Virus record (IMG/VR): IMGVR_UViG_3300045988_163776
Location: 128,001-155,695 of that record
DNA from: a virus
Length of the DNA: 27,695 nucleotides
Direction: 5' to 3' (one strand)
A program made the position numbers and the translations under genes. Shown one piece after another: positions 7,101-16,069 of this stretch (position 1 is its first letter; each line of letters begins with the position of its first letter). The notes beneath the pieces were generated by a model. That model saw only the letters and a program-made list of their open reading frames with translations, made no database searches and was not told where the DNA came from.

Positions 7101-7129
7101 TTGAAAATTTAAAAAAAATATAATATAAT
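7101..7129 (+). promoter_or_regulatory. sigma70-like promoter, TTGAAA-N17-TATAAT
   Basis: ttgaaa 7101-7106 and tataat 7124-7129. First of three tandem copies within 200 bp. Confidence 0.55.
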
Positions 7130-7249: not shown

Positions 7250-7278
7250 TTGAAAAATTAAAAAAAATATTATATAAT
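7250..7278 (+). promoter_or_regulatory. sigma70-like promoter, TTGAAA-N17-TATAAT
   Basis: ttgaaa 7250-7255 and tataat 7273-7278, immediately upstream of the tRNA island. Confidence 0.55.
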
Positions 7279-7308: not shown

Positions 7309-7381
7309 CATCTTATGGTGCAAAAGGATAGCACACTGTTGTACAGCAGAGATAAAGGTTCGAATCCTTGAAAGATGATCT
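7309..7381 (+). tRNA. tRNA-like element, atypical (anticodon arm not resolvable)
   Basis: Canonical T-arm aaagg-ttcgaat-ccttg and D-arm gtgc/gcac. Acceptor catctta/aaagatg has one mismatch. The anticodon region ctgttgtacagcag does not fold into a 5-bp/7-nt arm. Confidence 0.3.
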
Positions 7382-7855
7382 ATTTAGTAAAATGGTTTAT
7401 AATTTAAGTTTTCCGGAAAAACTTAGTACAATCATTGGATTTATATTATGAGTTCGAGTCTCATTAGCTTGCTACAGTAAAGGACGAATATAAAAACTTA
7501 AAATGTATTAGAGGTCAGCTCTGTGGTGAGAGTGAGTACTAAGATACAGGAGATTGGAAGTAAGCAATACACACCACTGAGCTTACTTTTGAGAGATATG
7601 AGATAGAACCTCCTCGTGGTTTCTCTCGGGCAATGCCTTAATAACTTTTGTTTATAGTTAATATGGTAGCAAATCTATCTTTACCCCTTTCCTTATAATA
7701 CTTAAAAAAAAGACAGTATCAGCAAATGAAATGCGTTAAATTAGGGATTTAAAGTGCTTTTATAAAACTGTCTTGTAATATGGTTCTATGGTTTAAGAAA
7801 TTAAAGTACTGTTTTATCATAGTAGAGCTTAAATCTCATAGAACCACCATTATAT

Positions 7856-9035: not shown

Positions 9036-9064
9036 TTGAAAAATTAAAAAAAATATTATATAAT
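9036..9064 (+). promoter_or_regulatory. sigma70-like promoter, TTGAAA-N17-TATAAT
   Basis: ttgaaa 9036-9041 and tataat 9059-9064. Confidence 0.55.
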
Positions 9065-9387: not shown

Positions 9388-9463
9388 GACGGTATCTTCT
9401 AACAGGTCAGGAAACCAGCCCTTCAAGCTGGAAATCTGGGTTCGAGCCCCAGTACCGTTACCA
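9388..9463 (+). tRNA. tRNA-Glu(UUC)-like, CCA encoded
   Basis: Acceptor gacggta/taccgtt, D-arm ttct/ggaa, anticodon arm ccagc-ccTTCaa-gctgg (C at position 33), T-arm ctggg-ttcgagc-cccag, then a cca. Confidence 0.5.
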
Positions 9464-9491
9464 TTAAAATATAAAAAGGAGCTGATTAATT

Positions 9492-10130
9492 TTGGCATAC
9501 ATTTATAAAATTATAAATGATATAAATTAGAAAATTTATATCGGAAAAACAGAATTTTCAATAGAAAAAAGGTTTAAAGAGCATTGTAAAGATGCTTTTA
9601 AAAAAAGAAATGAAAAAAGACCATTGTATTCTGCTATGAATAAATATGGTGTTGAACATTTTCATATTGAACTAATTGAAGAAACAGATATACCAGAAGA
9701 AAGAGAAATTTATTGGATTGAAAAATATCGTTCTTTTAAAAATGGTTATAATGCTACTTTGGGTGGAGATGGTAAAAAATATATTGATTATGATTTAGTT
9801 ATCTCTACTTATAAAGAACTATTAAGCATTACTGGAACTGCGAAAAAGATTGGTATATCAGAAGATAGTGTAAGCAATATTGTTCATAATCAAAAAGATA
9901 TAACTATATTAAGTGCATCTGAAGTAAATATACTGAAAAATGGGCATATAATTAATCAATATAATAAAAATACAAAAGAATTTATACAATCTTTTCCATC
10001 TATAAAAGCGGCTGCTAGAGCTGTTACAAATAAAGAAAAGATAGGTGGTGAAGCATCTCATATTATGGATGTTTGTAAAGGAAAAAGAAAAAGTGCTTAT
10101 GGTTATTATTGGCAATTTGCAGATAAATAA
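9492..10130 (+). CDS. GIY-YIG family homing endonuclease; one in-frame TAG at 9528
   Basis: From TTG 9492 (aaggag 10 nt upstream) the frame reads AYIYKIINDIN*KIYIGKTEFSIEKRFKEH..., i.e. GIY...YIG plus the catalytic R/E/H spacing, contiguous with track ORF 9624-10130. Sits between two tRNA genes. Confidence 0.6.
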
Positions 10131-10295
10131 GTTACCTCCATTCCGTTCATAGGGATGATAAGATACAAATCTCGATAGAGGAACAAATGCTCTTTAGTAT
10201 GCGTGGTTACACAGACCTTAATGTGTTTAAATATAGAGTAATTATTGCTGTAAGATATTTTATTGTAAGGCGTGTAAATAATTACTCTTTTATAT

Positions 10296-10370
10296 GGCTC
10301 CATCGTCTAAAAGTAAGGACATCAGTCTCTCAAACTGGAAATGGGATAGCATAATTCTCTGGAGTCACCA
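10296..10370 (+). tRNA. tRNA-Glu(CUC)-like with non-canonical T-loop, CCA encoded
   Basis: Acceptor ggctcca/tggagtc, D-arm gtct/ggac, anticodon arm tcagt-ctCTCaa-actgg, T-arm gggat-agcataa-ttctc (weak), then a cca. Confidence 0.4.
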
Positions 10371-11036: not shown

Positions 11037-11109
11037 TGCGGAGTGATGTAATGGTAGTATTTTAGCTTGATTAAGTTAAAGATTAGTAGTTCAAATTTAC
11101 TCTCCGCAT
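11037..11109 (+). tRNA. tRNA with an 8-nt anticodon loop (ttgattaa); identity unresolved
   Basis: Perfect acceptor tgcggag/ctccgca, U8, D-arm atgt-aatggta-gtat, anticodon stem ttagc/gttaa enclosing 8 nt, variable agatt, canonical T-arm agtag-ttcaaat-ttact. Confidence 0.45.
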
Positions 11110-11308: not shown

Positions 11309-12400
11309 ATGAATATTATATGTTCTGGTTCTAGATATCAAGTGTATGATACAGAAGATATAAAGACTTATTCTAAACTTCCAGTAGGGACATATGAAGT
11401 ATGTTTTAATCAAAATATTGGTTTTTATCTAACTGCTCATACTGCATTAGAAGTTAAAGAAGAAAAAATTTACGGCTCTACTTTAAACAGAATAGATAAG
11501 ATATTATCATCTTTTGGAAAAAGTGAACGTAACTTTGGTGTTATTTTAAGTGGAAATAAGGGAAGTGGTAAGTCTTTATTTGCAAGAGAATTAAGTAAAA
11601 AATGTCTTGAAAAAGAAATGCCTGTTATTATTGTTAATATAGCAGTTCCAGGAGTAGCTTCTTTTCTTGCTTCAATTAAACAAGAGGTAATGATTTTATT
11701 TGATGAGTTTGAAAAAACTTTTTCTTTTGAAAATGATTGCGGAGAAAAATCTGAACTTCCGCAAGAAGAATTGTTATCTTTATTTGATGGTTTGGATAGT
11801 GGTAAAAAATTATTCATAATTACCTGCAATGATACTTATAGGTTAAGCGATTATTTACTTAATCGTCCGGGCAGATTTCATTATCATTTTAAACTTGGTG
11901 TAGTTACACCGGAAGATATGAGAGAATATATGTCTGATAAATTGTTACCAAAATATCATTATAATATTGAAAAATTAATTAATGTAAGTAATTTTGTTGA
12001 TATGACTTATGATTTATTAAGAGCAATTGTTTTTGATCTTAATCAAGGATATGAATTAGAAGAAACATTATCTGATTTAAATGTTGACAATAAAGATTCT
12101 ATATCAATTGAAGCAACTTTAACCCTTGAAAATGGTTCCGTGTATAAAGCATTAAATTCACATTTATATTTTCAAAACCGTGATTGTTTACAACTCTTTG
12201 ATAGAAATCATGTGGGAGTAAATATAATTTATTACGCTAAAGATTTAAGTTTCAATGGCAATGAAGTTGTTTTAAAAAAATATACATTATCTTTTGATGA
12301 CCAAGCACCAGAAAGTGATAAGCAATCAGAGGTTAAAGAATTAACTATTAAAATAAAAAATGAGTATTCATTTAATTTTATGAATAGTTTTACAGTATAA
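11309..12400 (+). CDS. AAA+/P-loop ATPase
   Basis: Walker A GNKGSGKS, Walker B MILFDEFEK, sensor-1-like IITCND. Intact 363-aa ORF with aaagggg RBS and TAA stop. Confidence 0.7.
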   Translation: MNIICSGSRYQVYDTEDIKTYSKLPVGTYEVCFNQNIGFYLTAHTALEVKEEKIYGSTLNRIDKILSSFGKSERNFGVILSGNKGSGKSLFARELSKKCLEKEMPVIIVNIAVPGVASFLASIKQEVMILFDEFEKTFSFENDCGEKSELPQEELLSLFDGLDSGKKLFIITCNDTYRLSDYLLNRPGRFHYHFKLGVVTPEDMREYMSDKLLPKYHYNIEKLINVSNFVDMTYDLLRAIVFDLNQGYELEETLSDLNVDNKDSISIEATLTLENGSVYKALNSHLYFQNRDCLQLFDRNHVGVNIIYYAKDLSFNGNEVVLKKYTLSFDDQAPESDKQSEVKELTIKIKNEYSFNFMNSFTV

Positions 12401-12508: not shown

Positions 12509-12718
12509 GGCTTTAGAAAGATAATACCTTCACGTGGTTAAAGCTGTTTTTACTAAAATTATCTTAATAGGTAGCTCGACAGTACCTCCAAGCTAGCATA
12601 AGGGTATTAGAAAAAAGCTGTCCGTTTATGAAAAGAGTTTGTCGAGAAAACTCTTAGTGTAGTACACATTGGGCGGGAATTTTCCCCCGTTTGCGTTTAA
12701 AAGAAAGGGGTAAATAAT

Positions 12719-12937
12719 ATGTTATATGGGACAAGAAATAGCAATAACTATAATAATGAAACCCTCAATTTCTTAGATATTATAAGTATTGCTTCTTTTA
12801 TTTTGCAACTATAGAATAGAGAAAGCAATATGATTGCGGAAATACAAAATCAATTATCTGAAAAAATAGATAAACAAATTAATGTAAAACTTGATAAAAT
12901 TTTAAAAGATTTAGAAGACATAAAAAGTAAAATATAA
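12719..12937 (+). CDS. small protein (72 aa) with one in-frame TAG
   Basis: aaagggg RBS. MLYGTRNSNNYNNETLNFLDIISIASFILQL*NREAI...KSKI, TAA at 12935-12937. Becomes an ORF only if TAG is sense. Confidence 0.4.
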
Positions 12938-13052: not shown

Positions 13053-13082
13053 TATATGTAAAAGACAATAACAGCAATAAGT

Positions 13083-13155
13083 TCGAGAGTAGCTCAGATG
13101 GTTAGAGTGTTATAGTAAAATATAAAGGTCTGCAGTTCAAATCTGCACTTTTGGA
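13083..13155 (+). tRNA. tRNA-like gene with an atypical 6-nt anticodon loop
   Basis: D-arm gctc-agatggtta-gagt, stem ttata/tataa around gtaaaa, canonical T-arm tgcag-ttcaaat-ctgca. Acceptor tcgagag/cttttgg needs three G-U pairs. Confidence 0.3.
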
Positions 13156-13190
13156 GAAAACAACGTTGTCTTGTACATATGGTGTTATTG

Positions 13191-13265
13191 GTGTAATAGT
13201 AGCATAACGCACTGTGACTGCGTAGGCGAGAGGGCAGAACTCTCATTTCACCCCACTAAAAAAGA
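13191..13265 (+). tRNA. tRNA-His(GUG) with G-1, CCA encoded
   Basis: G-1 pairs with C73. D-arm gtgt-aatagta-gcat, anticodon arm acgca-ctGTGac-tgcgt, T-arm gagag-ggcagaa-ctctc (non-canonical loop). Acceptor has two U-U mismatches. Ends c cca. Confidence 0.5.
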
Positions 13266-13282
13266 CGATTACAGCAATTCAT

Positions 13283-13360
13283 TACCATTTAGCTTAATGG
13301 GAAAGAGCGTTAGAGTTTTAATCTAAAGGAGCGGTTCGAATCCGCATATTTAAATCGTCT
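13283..13360 (+). tRNA. tRNA-like element (UUU anticodon arm plus canonical T-arm); acceptor ends unresolved
   Basis: D-arm gctt-aatgggaaa-gagc, anticodon arm ttaga-gtTTTaa-tctaa, T-arm gcgg-ttcgaat-ccgc. The only complementary acceptor-like strands (agacgat 13273-13279 and atcgtct 13364-13370) lie outside with spacers. Confidence 0.3.
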
Positions 13361-14588: not shown

Positions 14589-14676
14589 GGGTGAGTAACG
14601 CGATAAAGTAGACGCTCCGGTCTGTAAAACCGGCTCCTTCGGGATCGAGTGGGTGCGATTCCCTCCTCGCCCACCA
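14589..14676 (+). tRNA. tRNA-Tyr(GUA), class II, CCA encoded
   Basis: Acceptor gggtgag/ctcgccc, anticodon arm ccggt-ctGTAaa-accgg, long variable arm, T-arm gtggg-tgcgatt-ccctc, then a cca. Confidence 0.65.
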
Positions 14677-15038: not shown

Positions 15039-15997
15039 ATGGATATAAATTTTTTAAAGGAGATTAAATCTCAGTACCCTGAATTAAACAAGAAAGAAAA
15101 AAATTTTTTATCTTTTGGAGATAAAATACATCATTGGACTATACTATATCGAACTTTTAATACTAAAAGTAATCATATTTAGTATGTTTGCTAGTGTGAT
15201 TGTGGCACAATTATTCCAGTAGCAAAAACAAGTCTTATAAATAATAAAAGTAAAAGTTGTATTCTCTGTAAAGGTCATAGCATTTTAGGTCAAAAATTTG
15301 GAAAATTAACTGTTCTATATAGAATAGATAATGAAAATAATAGAGGATATTGGCATTGTAAATGTGATTGTGGAAATGAGTGTAACGTAAATACATCTAA
15401 TTTAATATCTGGACATACACGCTCATGCGGTTGCTTACATAAAGAGGTTTAGCATAATAGAAGAATAGATTTAACTGGTTAGCGTTTTGGTAAATTAATT
15501 GCTTTATATCCAGTTTTAACTAAAAAAGGTGATAAATAGCCTTATTGGCATTGCAAGTGTGACTGTGGAGTTGAAAAAGATATATAGGCTGGGTGTTTAA
15601 AAGCTGGAGTTGTAAAATCCTGTGGCTGTATAAAATCTCTTGGAGAAGAAAATATTATAAAAGTATTAAAAGAAAATAATATTTCTTTTGAATATTAGTA
15701 TAAATTTTTTGATTTGCCAAAATATACTTTTGATTTTTTTGTAAATAATTAGTATATTATTGAATATGATGGAATTCAACATTTTACAGATAGTAGTGGA
15801 TGGAATAATAAAATAAACGTTCAAAATGTTCATAAAAGAGACTTATTAAAAAATTAGTATTGTTTTATTAATAACATTCCTATTATTAGAATTCCTTATG
15901 ATGTTTCATACAATTTAAATGATTTAATATTAGAAACTACTAATTTTCTTTTAACCCAAGAAAATGAAAATTAGTATTATGAAGGGAGATTTAACTG
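15039..15997 (+). CDS. homing-endonuclease-like protein (tandem Cys-rich YWHCKCDCG motifs plus a PD-(D/E)xK/Vsr-like C-terminal FDFF..IEYDGxQHF domain); about 10 in-frame TAG codons
   Basis: From ATG 15039 one frame runs about 319 codons to TGA 15995-15997, interrupted only by TAG. Product MDINFLKEIKSQYPELNKK...YWHCKCDCGNEC...YWHCKCDCGVEKDI...KYTFDFFVNN*YIIEYDGIQHFTDSSGW. Absent from the ORF track because of the TAGs. Confidence 0.5.
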
Positions 15998-16069
15998 TTG
16001 ACTATATACACTTCATACTTTTATTAGGTTAGATTTTTCCCTCCTAACTTAATACCACTAAGCACTGCA

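What the first reader, a model, noticed from the sequence alone, without database searches (positions are those of the whole stretch)
9492..10130. GIY-YIG homing endonuclease gene inserted between tRNA genes, itself carrying a TAG sense codon
Classic mobile-element placement (as with seg/mob genes in T4-like tRNA regions) between tRNA 9388-9463 and tRNA-like 10296-10370. The standard-code ORF track only sees the C-terminal two thirds (9624-10130). The N-terminal GIY...YIG motif lies upstream across a single TAG (9528-9530). A selfish endonuclease written in the recoded alphabet implies long residence in this recoded lineage or expression restricted to late infection.
Basis: seen in the sequence. 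Interest (0 to 1): 0.55.

Follow-up and report, generated by a model that had tools for sequence, protein, structure and literature searches.

The report
Recoded homing endonuclease in tRNA array
A selfish DNA-cutting enzyme gene sits between two glutamate tRNA genes of a gut phage that reads the TAG stop codon as glutamine. Related phages show the same site empty, filled or holding decaying copies, so this is a clear but ordinary example of a known kind of mobile gene.

Summary
Window 9492-10130 (+) is a 212-codon frame with one internal stop, TAG at 9528-9530. It encodes a complete GIY-YIG catalytic domain plus a NUMOD1/HTH DNA-binding tail. The GIY and YIG motifs lie on either side of the TAG. 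The TAG is present in all 12 other independent metagenome assemblies of this phage. The window shows the usual signs of TAG=Gln recoding: a tRNA(CUA), 42 in-frame TAGs, and a TAG at the invariant oxyanion-hole Gln of a papain-like gene. The gene lies between tRNA-Glu(UUC) and an atypical tRNA-Glu(CUC). A close relative has these two tRNAs 3 nt apart with no insert. Sister strains carry internally deleted remnants. A distant phage clade shows filled and empty versions of the same junction. This is a free-standing homing endonuclease seen at several stages of its life cycle, positionally like T4 SegB but not its orthologue. Across the gene's clade, TAG at codon 6 and/or 13 is nearly universal. 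Late-only or gated expression is plausible but untested, and a similar idea is already published. In relatives, but not here, the gene travels with a theta (HDV-like) ribozyme. Verdict: new member of a known kind, moderate interest.

The parts
9388..9463 (+). tRNA-Glu(UUC) with encoded CCA (9461-9463), directly upstream of the insert
   Evidence: ARAGORN and Rfam at 56.4 bits. It is only 67% identical to the orthologous tRNA of the empty-site relative L224, while the upstream flank is 83% and the downstream tRNA-like gene 98.7% identical.
9467..10292 (+). Insert relative to the empty-site relative L224: leader, endonuclease gene and trailer
   Evidence: blastn: window 9052-9466 matches L224 1-426 and window 10293-10519 matches L224 425-661. 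In L224 the two tRNAs are separated by TTA.
9473..9481 (+). Ribosome-binding site AAAAAGGAG, 10 nt before the TTG start
   Evidence: Read from the sequence. The same AAAAAGGAG(N8-10)ATG/TTG-GCA-TAC-AT context is conserved in homologous genes of other phages.
9492..10130 (+). GIY-YIG homing endonuclease gene, 212 codons, TTG start, TAA stop
   Evidence: Pfam GIY-YIG 6.8e-11 and NUMOD1 7.5e-8. PHROGs 'homing endonuclease' 1.5e-24. I-TevI catalytic domain 1mk0/1ln0 at E about 1e-10. More than 6000 homologues.
9528..9530 (+). In-frame TAG (codon 13) in the loop between the GIY and YIG strands, read as Gln
   Evidence: Present in all 12 other assemblies. The same codon is TAG in 7 of 13 clade alleles, and a 48%-identical paralogue has CAA there. 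Third-position substitutions dominate on both sides of it.
9492..9752 (+). GIY-YIG catalytic domain (residues 1-87), with Y5, Y16, R27, H31, E72 and N87 matching I-TevI Y6, Y17, R27, H31, E75 and N90
   Evidence: Pfam alignment and the profile alignment to I-TevI 1mk0/1ln0.
9951..10022 (+). NUMOD1 DNA-binding module (residues 154-177) within a helical, HTH-rich C-terminal half
   Evidence: Pfam. AlphaFold2 model of residues 14-212: C-terminal half pLDDT 80-90. Best PDB match is I-HmuI 1u3e, weak at E=0.04.
10131..10295 (+). Trailer between the stop codon and the next tRNA; 10172-10229 is older intergenic DNA, not part of the mobile gene
   Evidence: Window 10172-10229 is 93% identical to the spacer between the two Glu tRNAs in the HEG-less relative L223.
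10296..10367 (+). Atypical tRNA-Glu(CUC)-like gene downstream of the insert
   Evidence: Rfam tRNA at 37.5 bits, anticodon loop CUCUCAA, one mismatched T-stem pair and T-loop AGCAUAA. It is 98.7% identical in L224 and present in L223, whose T-arm reads GGGATGGCAGAATTCCC (my reading, not tested, is that the stem changes are compensatory). It is probably functional rather than a pseudogene.
16887..16974 (+). Suppressor tRNA(CUA) needed to read the TAG
   Evidence: ARAGORN (labelled Pyl only because of the anticodon) and Rfam at 57.7 bits. The acceptor stem U1-A72/G2-C71/G3-C70 and the G discriminator match the window's tRNA-Gln(UUG); the variable arm is long.

Best explanation
This is an intact, free-standing GIY-YIG homing endonuclease gene lodged between tRNA-Glu(UUC) and tRNA-Glu(CUC) in the tRNA array of a roughly 155-kb gut phage that decodes TAG as glutamine.

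The mRNA is probably co-transcribed with the same-strand tRNA array. It is translated from TTG 9492, and codon 13 (TAG) is read as Gln by the phage's own tRNA(CUA). The product has an I-TevI-type N-terminal nuclease tethered to a NUMOD1/HTH DNA-binding tail.

When this phage co-infects a cell with a relative that lacks the gene, the enzyme is inferred to cut that relative's DNA at or near the tRNA-Glu junction. Recombinational repair from the gene-bearing genome then copies the gene, and probably the adjacent tRNA-Glu(UUC) allele, into the break.

Shown here: the domains and catalytic residues, translation-frame conservation across the TAG, TAG=Gln in this genome, and filled, empty and decaying alleles at the same site.

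Inferred: endonuclease activity, the target site, co-conversion, and the timing of expression.
For: Domains and catalytic residues are complete.

The frame is conserved across the TAG. Among 13 clade alleles, differences in codons 2-44 fall 556, 378 and 1232 on codon positions 1, 2 and 3, with synonymous variation on both sides of codon 13.

The TAG is real: it is present in 12 of 12 other assemblies.

TAG=Gln in this genome:
- A tRNA(CUA) is present.
- Total length of ORFs of at least 300 nt rises from 20.9 to 27.9 kb when TAG is read through.
- There are 42 in-frame TAGs against 22 CAG and 143 CAA in 23 ORFs.
- With TAG masked as X, a TAG of the papain-like gene 23312-24241 aligns to the Gln of the DQG motif seven residues before the catalytic Cys in PDB 3ois; that this is the family's invariant oxyanion-hole Gln is my own knowledge.

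Mobility:
- Empty site in L224, with the two tRNAs 3 nt apart, and in L223.
- Sister strains 93-97% identical carry a 347-nt internal deletion (L225/L228) or a 506-nt deletion removing the RBS to about codon 164 (L226/L227).
- One assembly has a 1-nt insertion in an A-run.
- In a distant clade, the same Glu(UUC)|Glu(CUC) junction is filled in L048/L052 and empty in L053/L054/L051.
- Another family member sits between tRNA-Ser and tRNA-Ile, which are 3-4 nt apart in relatives.

Family habit: most homologues in fetched phage loci (21 of 31 hits) lie 29-211 nt downstream of a same-strand tRNA.

The tRNA-Glu(UUC) next to the gene is the least conserved segment against the empty allele: 67% versus 83-99% for its neighbours. 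This fits co-conversion or a cleavage-resistant target.
Against: No cleavage activity or target site is demonstrated.

All 13 assemblies of this phage species carry the gene, so no polymorphism exists within the species itself. A fixed homing endonuclease has no targets left in its own population and may already be drifting. Against the 98.6%-identical variant there are 6 nonsynonymous and 4 synonymous changes, including G91D at a nearly invariant Gly.

The empty L224 allele could be a secondary clean deletion rather than an ancestral empty site.

The identity of the amino acid inserted at this particular TAG rests on genome-wide evidence. Column 13 is variable in the family (Q, G, N, D, H). 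The many 'Q' residues at this column in database homologues are themselves TAG codons translated by the source pipelines.

The AlphaFold2 model of residues 14-212 gave a poor N-terminal domain, pLDDT below 55.
Confidence: 0.82

Rival explanations
1. The gene is dead. TAG at codon 13 is a true stop in this gene, and at most a 168-aa catalytically inert NUMOD1 DNA-binding fragment is made from TTG 9624.
For: Standard-code gene callers report only the C-terminal fragment. Close relatives do carry decayed copies and one frameshifted copy. Against the 98.6% variant, nonsynonymous changes are as common as synonymous ones.
Against: The genome is demonstrably TAG-recoded and encodes tRNA(CUA). The 44 codons upstream of 9624 keep every GIY-YIG catalytic residue and show third-position-biased divergence across the clade, on both sides of the TAG. 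A strong RBS precedes 9492; I saw none before 9624 when reading the sequence (not searched for formally). TAG at this codon is shared by alleles that are 50-70% identical. That is not expected for a null mutation.
Confidence: 0.06
2. The early TAG is a selected translational gate, not a neutral by-product of recoding. The endonuclease can only be made once the phage suppressor tRNA has accumulated. This would keep a DNA-cutting enzyme silent early in infection, or in any cell lacking the suppressor.
For: Eleven of 13 distinct clade alleles have TAG at codon 6 and/or 13. Whenever those positions encode Gln in the >=50%-identity clade alleles the codon is TAG, except one CAA at codon 6. Elsewhere in the same genes Gln is mostly CAA.

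A second endonuclease-like gene in the same array, 15039-16001, has 10 TAG among its 15 Gln codons. Neighbouring non-nuclease genes have 0-1.

Borges et al. proposed the same logic for a recoded intron endonuclease in Agate phages (bioRxiv 10.1101/2021.08.26.457843).

Sigma-70-like TTGAAA-N17-TATAAT sites lie upstream at 9036-9064. That would allow early transcription.
Against: The alleles are related by descent, so shared TAGs may be a single inherited event. TAG to CAA needs two steps, through CAG (against AT pressure) or through TAA (lethal), so TAG codons are mutationally sticky.

Two alleles (L001, L068) have no early TAG.

The suppressor tRNA sits in the same array on the same strand, so it may be expressed at the same time as the gene.

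The number of promoter matches is no higher than in shuffled sequence.
Confidence: 0.3
3. The nuclease is retained because it benefits the phage, not purely as a selfish element. Possible benefits are excluding related co-infecting phages, marking a boundary of genetic exchange, or driving amplification or spread of the tRNA block, as reported for T4/T6 SegB.
For: The gene is intact and fixed in 12 of 13 assemblies of the species, the 13th carrying a 1-nt frameshift. SegB promotes preferential inheritance of the flanking tRNA genes (PMC2330249). It has also been reported to amplify anti-defence tRNA loci (PMC13096335, abstract). The adjacent tRNA-Glu(UUC) allele differs sharply from that of the gene-less relative.
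Against: Closely related strains have lost or truncated the gene without other visible change to the locus. The gene is therefore dispensable. The patchy distribution and variable positions among relatives are what is expected of a selfish element.
Confidence: 0.15

Closest known systems
T4 SegB (free-standing GIY-YIG homing endonuclease in the T4 tRNA gene cluster)
   Same: Both are GIY-YIG enzymes of about 210-220 aa lying between tRNA genes on the tRNA strand. In T4 the order is tRNA-Ile, 41 nt, segB, 5 nt, tRNA-Arg. In both cases related phages lack the gene. [quoted passage not shown] That fits this family's habit of sitting just 3' of many different tRNAs.
   Different: Sequence similarity is confined to the catalytic domain: 34% over 97 residues, E=5e-9, with no C-terminal match. 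It is an analogue, not an orthologue. This gene contains a TAG sense codon and depends on a phage suppressor tRNA. Its target has not been determined.
I-TevI (intron-encoded GIY-YIG endonuclease of T4 td)
   Same: The catalytic domain aligns end to end with the solved I-TevI domain, E about 1e-10, with Y, Y, R, H, E and N conserved. Both have a two-part design, an N-terminal nuclease plus a C-terminal DNA-binding region.
   Different: This gene is not in an intron: the Rfam gathering scan of the window finds only tRNAs. It has no zinc-finger linker, since the protein has only two Cys, C32 and C195. The C-terminal half is NUMOD1/HTH, weakly I-HmuI-like.
Recoded homing endonuclease of Agate phages (Borges et al., stop-codon recoding in gut phages)
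   Same: Both are selfish endonuclease genes carrying recoded stop codons in phages that switch genetic code. That paper already proposes that in-frame stops delay endonuclease production until late in infection.
   Different: That case is a group I intron endonuclease with TGA=Trp recoding. This one is free-standing, in a tRNA array, with TAG=Gln.
TAG-recoded gut phages of about 135-155 kb with large tRNA arrays and tRNA-Sup(CUA), e.g. phAss-1 / 'Phassvirus' (PMC10607447)
   Same: Similar genome size, tens of tRNAs, suppressor tRNA(CUA), TAG=Gln in many late genes, and a distant link to Enterococcus phages.
   Different: There is no nucleotide-level match to any deposited phage beyond about 170 nt. 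Membership of that proposed genus was not tested. The word 'endonuclease' occurs only once in the paper's main text, and I did not read that passage.

Membership tests
GIY-YIG nuclease superfamily (Pfam PF01541) | Match to the family profile above the curated threshold, over the whole domain | tested here: met
   42.8 bits against a cut-off of 22.6, residues 1-87 on profile positions 1-78 of 78.
GIY-YIG nuclease superfamily (Pfam PF01541) | GIY and YIG motifs plus the catalytic Arg, His/Tyr, Glu and Asn | tested here: met
   YIY (3-5), YIG (16-18), R27, H31, E72 and N87 align with I-TevI Y6, Y17, R27, H31, E75 and N90. The I-TevI residue roles come from my own knowledge of the 1mk0 (E75A) and 1ln0 (R27A) structures.
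Free-standing (Seg-type) homing endonuclease gene | Not embedded in an intron or intein | tested here: met
   The Rfam gathering scan of the window gives only tRNA matches and no group I or II intron. The gene lies in an intergenic position between two tRNAs.
Free-standing (Seg-type) homing endonuclease gene | Presence/absence polymorphism at the same locus among related genomes | tested here: met
   L224 and L223 are empty. L225-L228 hold deletion remnants. L048/L052 are filled and L053/L054/L051 empty at the same tRNA junction.
Free-standing (Seg-type) homing endonuclease gene | Site-specific cleavage of the gene-less allele and preferential inheritance in mixed infection | not testable with these tools
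   This needs purified enzyme and phage crosses.
T4 SegB orthologue | Full-length sequence similarity including the DNA-binding region | tested here: not met
   BLASTP aligns only residues 3-94 (34% identity); there is no significant C-terminal alignment.
I-TevI-type architecture | Zinc-finger-containing linker between the nuclease and the DNA-binding domain | tested here: not met
   The protein has only two cysteines, C32 and C195 (sequence). No zinc-finger family appears in the Pfam scan.
Genetic code 15 phage (TAG = Gln) | Phage-encoded suppressor tRNA with anticodon CUA | tested here: met
   16887-16974. The acceptor stem and discriminator resemble the window's tRNA-Gln.
Genetic code 15 phage (TAG = Gln) | In-frame TAGs in conserved genes that align with Gln in standard-code homologues | tested here: met
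   With TAG masked as X, the papain-like gene's TAG aligns with the Gln of the DQG motif ahead of the catalytic Cys in PDB 3ois; its role as the oxyanion-hole Gln is my own knowledge. TAG at codon 6 of clade members aligns with I-TevI Gln. A paralogue has CAA at codon 13. Caveat: the 'Q' residues in database homologues are translated TAGs.
Genetic code 15 phage (TAG = Gln) | Peptide-level evidence of Gln at TAG | not testable with these tools
   This needs metaproteomics, as done for crAss-like phages in PMC9523058.
Theta (minimal HDV-like) ribozyme, for the elements noticed at 12509-12572, 16975-17026 and 7590-~7682 | First nucleotide (G1) within a few nt of a tRNA 3' end; P1, P2 and P3 in the order P1-P2-P3-P3'-P1'-J4/2-P2'; a conserved C in J4/2 | tested here: met
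   G1 at 12509 abuts tRNA-Pro(UGG) and G1 at 16975 abuts tRNA(CUA). P1 of 7-8 bp and P2 of 5-9 bp pair in 14 plus 45 distinct examples whose arm sequences all differ. A conserved (A/G)CTAA is present. Matching to the published descriptor is by my reading of PMC10879173, not by running it.
Theta (minimal HDV-like) ribozyme | Self-cleavage in vitro | not testable with these tools
   This needs transcription and cleavage assays.

The most novel reading that the evidence does not exclude
Endonuclease genes of this clade may be adapted specifically to life in code-switching phages, in two ways.

First, one or two TAG codons within the first 13 codons may be kept as a suppressor-tRNA-dependent gate on translation.

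Second, in many relatives the gene appears to move as a composite cassette, theta ribozyme plus endonuclease. The cassette inserts right after the discriminator base of a tRNA gene and replaces the encoded CCA. The ribozyme would then cut the transcript exactly at the tRNA 3' end, making the insertion harmless to the tRNA, much as self-splicing makes intron-borne endonucleases harmless.

The window copy would be a ribozyme-less derivative at a site where the CCA is kept.
Probability: 0.3. Interest if true: 0.65.

Novelty: new member of a known kind. Interest (0 to 1): 0.38.

Why it matters
The case shows that standard-code annotation truncates selfish nuclease genes in recoded phages: here the public protein clusters hold only a 164-aa NUMOD1 fragment. 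It also provides a well-resolved natural series for one homing endonuclease at one tRNA junction, covering intact, frameshifted, internally deleted and absent states. That series defines substrates (empty-site alleles) for a direct cleavage test. If the early TAGs prove to be a selected gate, the gene would be a simple system for testing whether code switching controls the timing of dangerous proteins. If the ribozyme-endonuclease cassettes are real mobile units, they would link two phenomena so far described separately, theta ribozymes at phage tRNA 3' ends and homing endonucleases in tRNA arrays.

Tried and rejected
1. 'Q' in database homologues as evidence for TAG=Gln. Rejected as circular. 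Three homologues checked at DNA level have TAG at those very codons, and the look-up flags 'translates_to_query: no'. I replaced it with the papain-like oxyanion-hole Gln test, the I-TevI Gln at codon 6 and a CAA paralogue at codon 13.

2. A duplicated tRNA 3'-end remnant downstream of the gene, as found in L044 (13 nt, p below 0.002). In the window the best match is 6 nt, p about 0.47, so nothing is there.

3. A theta ribozyme upstream of the window gene. None: only 28 nt separate the tRNA from the start codon.

4. Rfam search of the conserved leader of relatives. No family matched at E of 10 or below. It was identified from the literature instead.

5. MAFFT alignments of the ribozyme (A5, A6) were out of register for the variable arms. 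I scored the helices with an anchored script and shuffles instead. No covariance model was built.

The model of residues 14-212 has an unreliable N-terminal domain, and the fold search gave no hit at E of 0.001 or below.

7. Nucleotide searches of deposited phages found no close relative.

8. The idea that the downstream tRNA-like gene was damaged by the insertion. Rejected: the same odd T-loop is present in the empty-site relatives.

9. The pattern scan of viral contigs returned a mix. About 30 of 82 matches lacked the helices and are an unrelated conserved coding sequence or chance matches.
Full report
**1. The observation**

The + strand frame from TTG 9492 to TAA 10128-10130 contains 212 codons and a single internal stop, TAG at 9528-9530. 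The other two frames of the same stretch hold 15 and 28 stops. For this 25% G+C composition the chance of 211 codons free of TAA/TGA is about 2e-8, and none of 20,000 shuffles had one stop or fewer. The mechanical ORF list sees only 9624-10130, 168 aa.

With TAG read as Q the product starts MAYIYKIINDINQKIYIGKTEFSIEKRFKEH. Pfam gives GIY-YIG at E=6.8e-11 over residues 1-87, covering the whole profile, and NUMOD1 at 7.5e-8 over residues 154-177. There are weak I-HmuI NUMOD-like and HTH matches. The first 44 residues alone hit GIY-YIG at 7.3e-9, whereas the 168-aa standard ORF does not hit it at all. PHROGs places the protein in 'homing endonuclease' families at 1.5e-24.

A profile of the family matches the solved I-TevI catalytic domain (1mk0, 1ln0) at about 1e-10. 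Y5, Y16, R27, H31, E72 and N87 occupy the positions of the I-TevI catalytic residues. A strong RBS, AAAAAGGAG at 9473-9481, lies 10 nt before the TTG. The same RBS-start-GCA-TAC-AT context recurs in homologous genes of other phages, two of which also use TTG.

**2. The TAG is real and is read as Gln**

Twelve other assemblies from different metagenomes, 98.6-100% identical over 9388-10370, all carry TAG at codon 13. The window has the marks of TAG recoding:
- A tRNA with anticodon CUA lies at 16887-16974.
- Total ORF length rises from 20.9 to 27.9 kb, and the longest ORF from 1650 to 2448 nt, when TAG is read through.
- Twenty-three ORFs hold 42 in-frame TAGs against 22 CAG and 143 CAA. TAGs are rare in the early-looking left part and common in the structural and lysis genes on the right.

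One caution. I first took the 'Q' at column 13 of database homologues as support. Three of those homologues, checked at DNA level, have TAG at exactly those codons and had been translated with an alternative code by their source pipelines. That evidence is therefore circular.

Non-circular evidence is as follows:
- With TAGs masked as X, one TAG of the papain-like/SLH gene 23312-24241 aligns with the Gln of the DQG motif seven residues before the catalytic Cys in PDB 3ois, which I take, from my own knowledge of the family, to be its invariant oxyanion-hole Gln.
- TAG at codon 6 of clade members aligns with a genuine Gln of I-TevI.
- A 48%-identical paralogue has CAA at codon 13.
- The suppressor tRNA shares U1-A72, G2-C71, G3-C70 and the G discriminator with the window's tRNA-Gln(UUG), although it has a long variable arm.

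Across 13 distinct alleles of the clade, differences in codons 2-44 fall 556, 378 and 1232 on codon positions 1, 2 and 3. Synonymous variation occurs on both sides of codon 13. The frame is therefore under purifying selection straight through the TAG.

**3. The flanks**

Upstream is tRNA-Glu(UUC), 9388-9463, with an encoded CCA. Downstream, at 10296-10367, Rfam finds a tRNA at 37.5 bits that ARAGORN misses. Its anticodon loop reads CUC, one T-stem pair is mismatched, and the T-loop is AGCAUAA. I first thought it a damaged gene. However, it is 98.7% identical in relative L224, and L223 carries the homologous gene with its T-arm reading GGGATGGCAGAATTCCC, which I read (untested) as compensatory stem changes. 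It is probably a working, atypical tRNA-Glu(CUC).

**4. Presence and absence**

The neighbouring ATPase (11309-12400) led to close relatives.
- **L224** (ATPase 85% identical; DNA 79-89%). The two Glu tRNAs are separated by TTA. The window segment 9467-10292 is simply missing.
- **L223** (ATPase 66%). The tRNAs are about 100 nt apart and there is no endonuclease gene. Its spacer is 93% identical to window 10172-10229, so part of the window's 'trailer' is old intergenic DNA.
- **Sister strains**, 93-97% identical to the window. L225/L228 lack 9602-9948; the remnant keeps the TAG and then runs out of frame. L226/L227 lack 9477-9982, removing the RBS, the start and about 164 codons.
- **One otherwise identical assembly (L093)** has a 1-nt insertion in the A-run near 9620.
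- **A distant clade** (ATPase about 51% identical). The same Glu(UUC)|Glu(CUC) junction is filled by a 58%-identical homologue in L048/L052 and empty in L053, L054 and L051.
- **Another family member.** In L044 it lies between tRNA-Ser(AGA) and tRNA-Ile(GAU), which are 3-4 nt apart in L045, L033 and L037. A 13-nt copy of the tRNA-Ser 3' end flanks that insert.

Together these show invasion, fixation, decay and loss. This is the life cycle expected of a homing endonuclease gene (the cycle itself is general knowledge, not tested here). They also show that the gene is dispensable.

**5. The family**

More than 6000 database proteins match, and those at 60-70% identity are full length. In fetched phage loci most homologues (21 of the 31 hits) lie within tRNA arrays on the tRNA strand, 29-211 nt after a tRNA, the others lying further from or without an upstream tRNA. 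The tRNAs differ: Glu, Pro, Ser, Ile, Thr, Trp, Phe and Met. The arrays of this phage group also hold other nuclease genes with TAG codons:
- Window 15039-16001: 10 TAG, PHROG HNH/homing endonuclease at 4e-40.
- An HNH gene with 2 TAG in L224.
- A third GIY-YIG gene with 3 TAG beside tRNA-Phe in L225.

Within the clade of alleles at least 50% identical, codon 6 is TAG in 7, AAA in 5 and CAA in 1. Codon 13 is TAG in 7 and otherwise Asn, Gly, His or Asp. Eleven of 13 alleles have at least one TAG in the first 13 codons. Other Gln codons are mostly CAA, with TAG also at other positions in several alleles and CAG in a few.

**6. How it most likely works**

Shown: an intact two-domain GIY-YIG enzyme gene, translated through a TAG in a genome that supplies tRNA(CUA), at a site that is empty or decaying in relatives.

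Inferred:
- The enzyme cuts the gene-less allele of co-infecting relatives near the tRNA-Glu junction, and repair copies the gene in.
- The target probably includes tRNA-gene DNA. T4 SegB recognises the T-psi-C stem-loop sequence (PMC2330249). Inserts in relatives begin exactly at the tRNA 3' end.
- The tRNA-Glu(UUC) next to the gene is only 67% identical to that of the empty allele, while its surroundings are 83-99% identical. This is as expected if the tRNA allele came in with the gene, or differs so as to escape cutting.

Timing cannot be read from the sequence. Sigma-70-like sites lie upstream at 9036-9064, but such matches are no more frequent than in shuffled sequence. The suppressor tRNA lies in the same array.

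**7. Comparison with what is known**

Position and logic match T4 SegB, but similarity to SegB is confined to the catalytic domain at 34%. The catalytic domain is I-TevI-like, but there is no intron and no zinc finger. TAG=Gln phages with suppressor tRNAs are well described. Borges et al. already reported a recoded intron endonuclease and proposed delayed production. The finding is therefore a new member of a known kind.

**8. Seen on the way: theta ribozymes**

In most relatives the endonuclease gene is preceded by a conserved element of about 60 nt. I found it to be a double-pseudoknot with perfectly covarying arms: 14 distinct examples, and 45 more from a pattern scan. It matches the theta ribozymes, minimal HDV-like ribozymes that abut phage tRNA 3' ends (PMC10879173).

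In the two filled-versus-empty pairs of relatives, ribozyme plus endonuclease form the insert and replace the encoded CCA. That paper does not mention endonucleases.

The association is one-sided. Only 3 of 45 ribozymes fetched without regard to endonucleases are followed by this family.

The window gene has no ribozyme. The window does hold three such elements: after tRNA-Pro(UGG), after the suppressor tRNA, and a variant near 7590.

**9. Verdict**

'Late expression' remains untested. The case is a tidy and instructive example rather than a surprise.

Noticed in passing
window 12509-12572 (+): A theta (minimal HDV-like) ribozyme-like element starts at the last base of tRNA-Pro(UGG), which has no encoded CCA. 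P1 is GGCTTTAG/TTAAAGCT, P2 AAGATAAT/ATTATCTT, P3 ACC/GGT with loop TTCACGT, followed by the conserved ACTAA. A 72-codon ORF with one TAG follows at 12719-12937.
   Followed up: partly
window 16975-17026 (+): A second theta-ribozyme-like element lies directly after the suppressor tRNA(CUA). P1 is GTCATC/GATGAT, P2 GTAGAA/TTCTAC and the core is GCCTTTACGTGGC. This matches the published link between these ribozymes and suppressor tRNAs.
   Followed up: partly
window 7590-~7682 (+): A variant of the same motif: core ACCTCCTCGTGGT at 7608, P1 GAGAGA/TCTCTC, and about 45 nt inserted before the P2 3' strand (GAGATAGA/TCTATCTT). It lies about 120 nt after tRNA-Pro(CGG), not abutting it. It may be an inactive or extended form.
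   Followed up: no
L048:741-820, L044:5606-5689, also L001, L002, L004, L005, L059/L074, L097-L101: In relatives, theta ribozyme plus GIY-YIG gene behave as one insert placed right after the tRNA discriminator base and replacing the encoded CCA (filled-versus-empty pairs). The theta-ribozyme paper does not mention endonucleases. Only 3 of 45 ribozymes fetched by pattern are followed by this gene family.
   Followed up: partly
window 15039-16001 (+): A second endonuclease-like gene in the tRNA array, 320 codons with 10 in-frame TAG against 4 CAA and 1 CAG. It has three CxCDCG-type repeats and a C-terminal nuclease-like region. PHROG 374/559/9084 'HNH/homing endonuclease' scores up to 4e-40; Pfam gives only weak DUF2726/DUF5889 matches. 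It is the most heavily recoded gene in the window.
   Followed up: partly
window 16887-16974 (+): The suppressor tRNA(CUA) is 88 nt with a long variable arm, although its acceptor stem and discriminator look like tRNA-Gln. Glutamine tRNAs normally have a short variable arm, so how it is charged is an open point.
   Followed up: partly
window 23312-24241 (+): A papain-like cysteine protease domain plus an SLH domain, probably a lysin and a hint of a Bacillota host. It has 5 in-frame TAG, one at the position of the catalytic oxyanion-hole Gln.
   Followed up: partly
window 7309-7378, 11037-11109, 13082-13156, 13182-13252, 13283-13353, 14589-14673 (+): Several weak or odd tRNA-like genes. ARAGORN reports a 4-nt anticodon (gatt) and a 2-nt anticodon (aa). 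Rfam alone finds four more at 32-41 bits. Their status as genes or relics is unknown.
   Followed up: no
window 7101-7129, 7250-7278, 9036-9064 (+): Three identical near-consensus sigma-70-like sites (TTGAAA-N17-TATAAT) ahead of tRNA blocks, although the total number of promoter-like matches is no higher than in shuffles.
   Followed up: no
L225:1669-1957, L228:410-698, L226/L227:421-565, L093:~470: Closely related strains carry decayed copies of the gene: a 347-nt internal deletion, a 506-nt 5' deletion, and a 1-nt insertion in an A-run. This gives a natural series of decay at one locus.
   Followed up: yes
L225:5355-6101 and L224:780-1508: Other nuclease genes with TAG codons are present or absent at other points of the same tRNA array. 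L225 has a 248-codon GIY-YIG gene with 3 TAG just after tRNA-Phe. L224 has a 242-codon HNH gene with 2 TAG where the window has tRNA-Leu, an odd tRNA and tRNA-Gly.
   Followed up: partly
window 9388-9463 versus L224:349-423: The tRNA-Glu(UUC) next to the endonuclease gene is the least conserved segment of the region, 67% identical, with changes concentrated in stems including the T-arm. Flanking DNA is 83-99% identical.
   Followed up: partly
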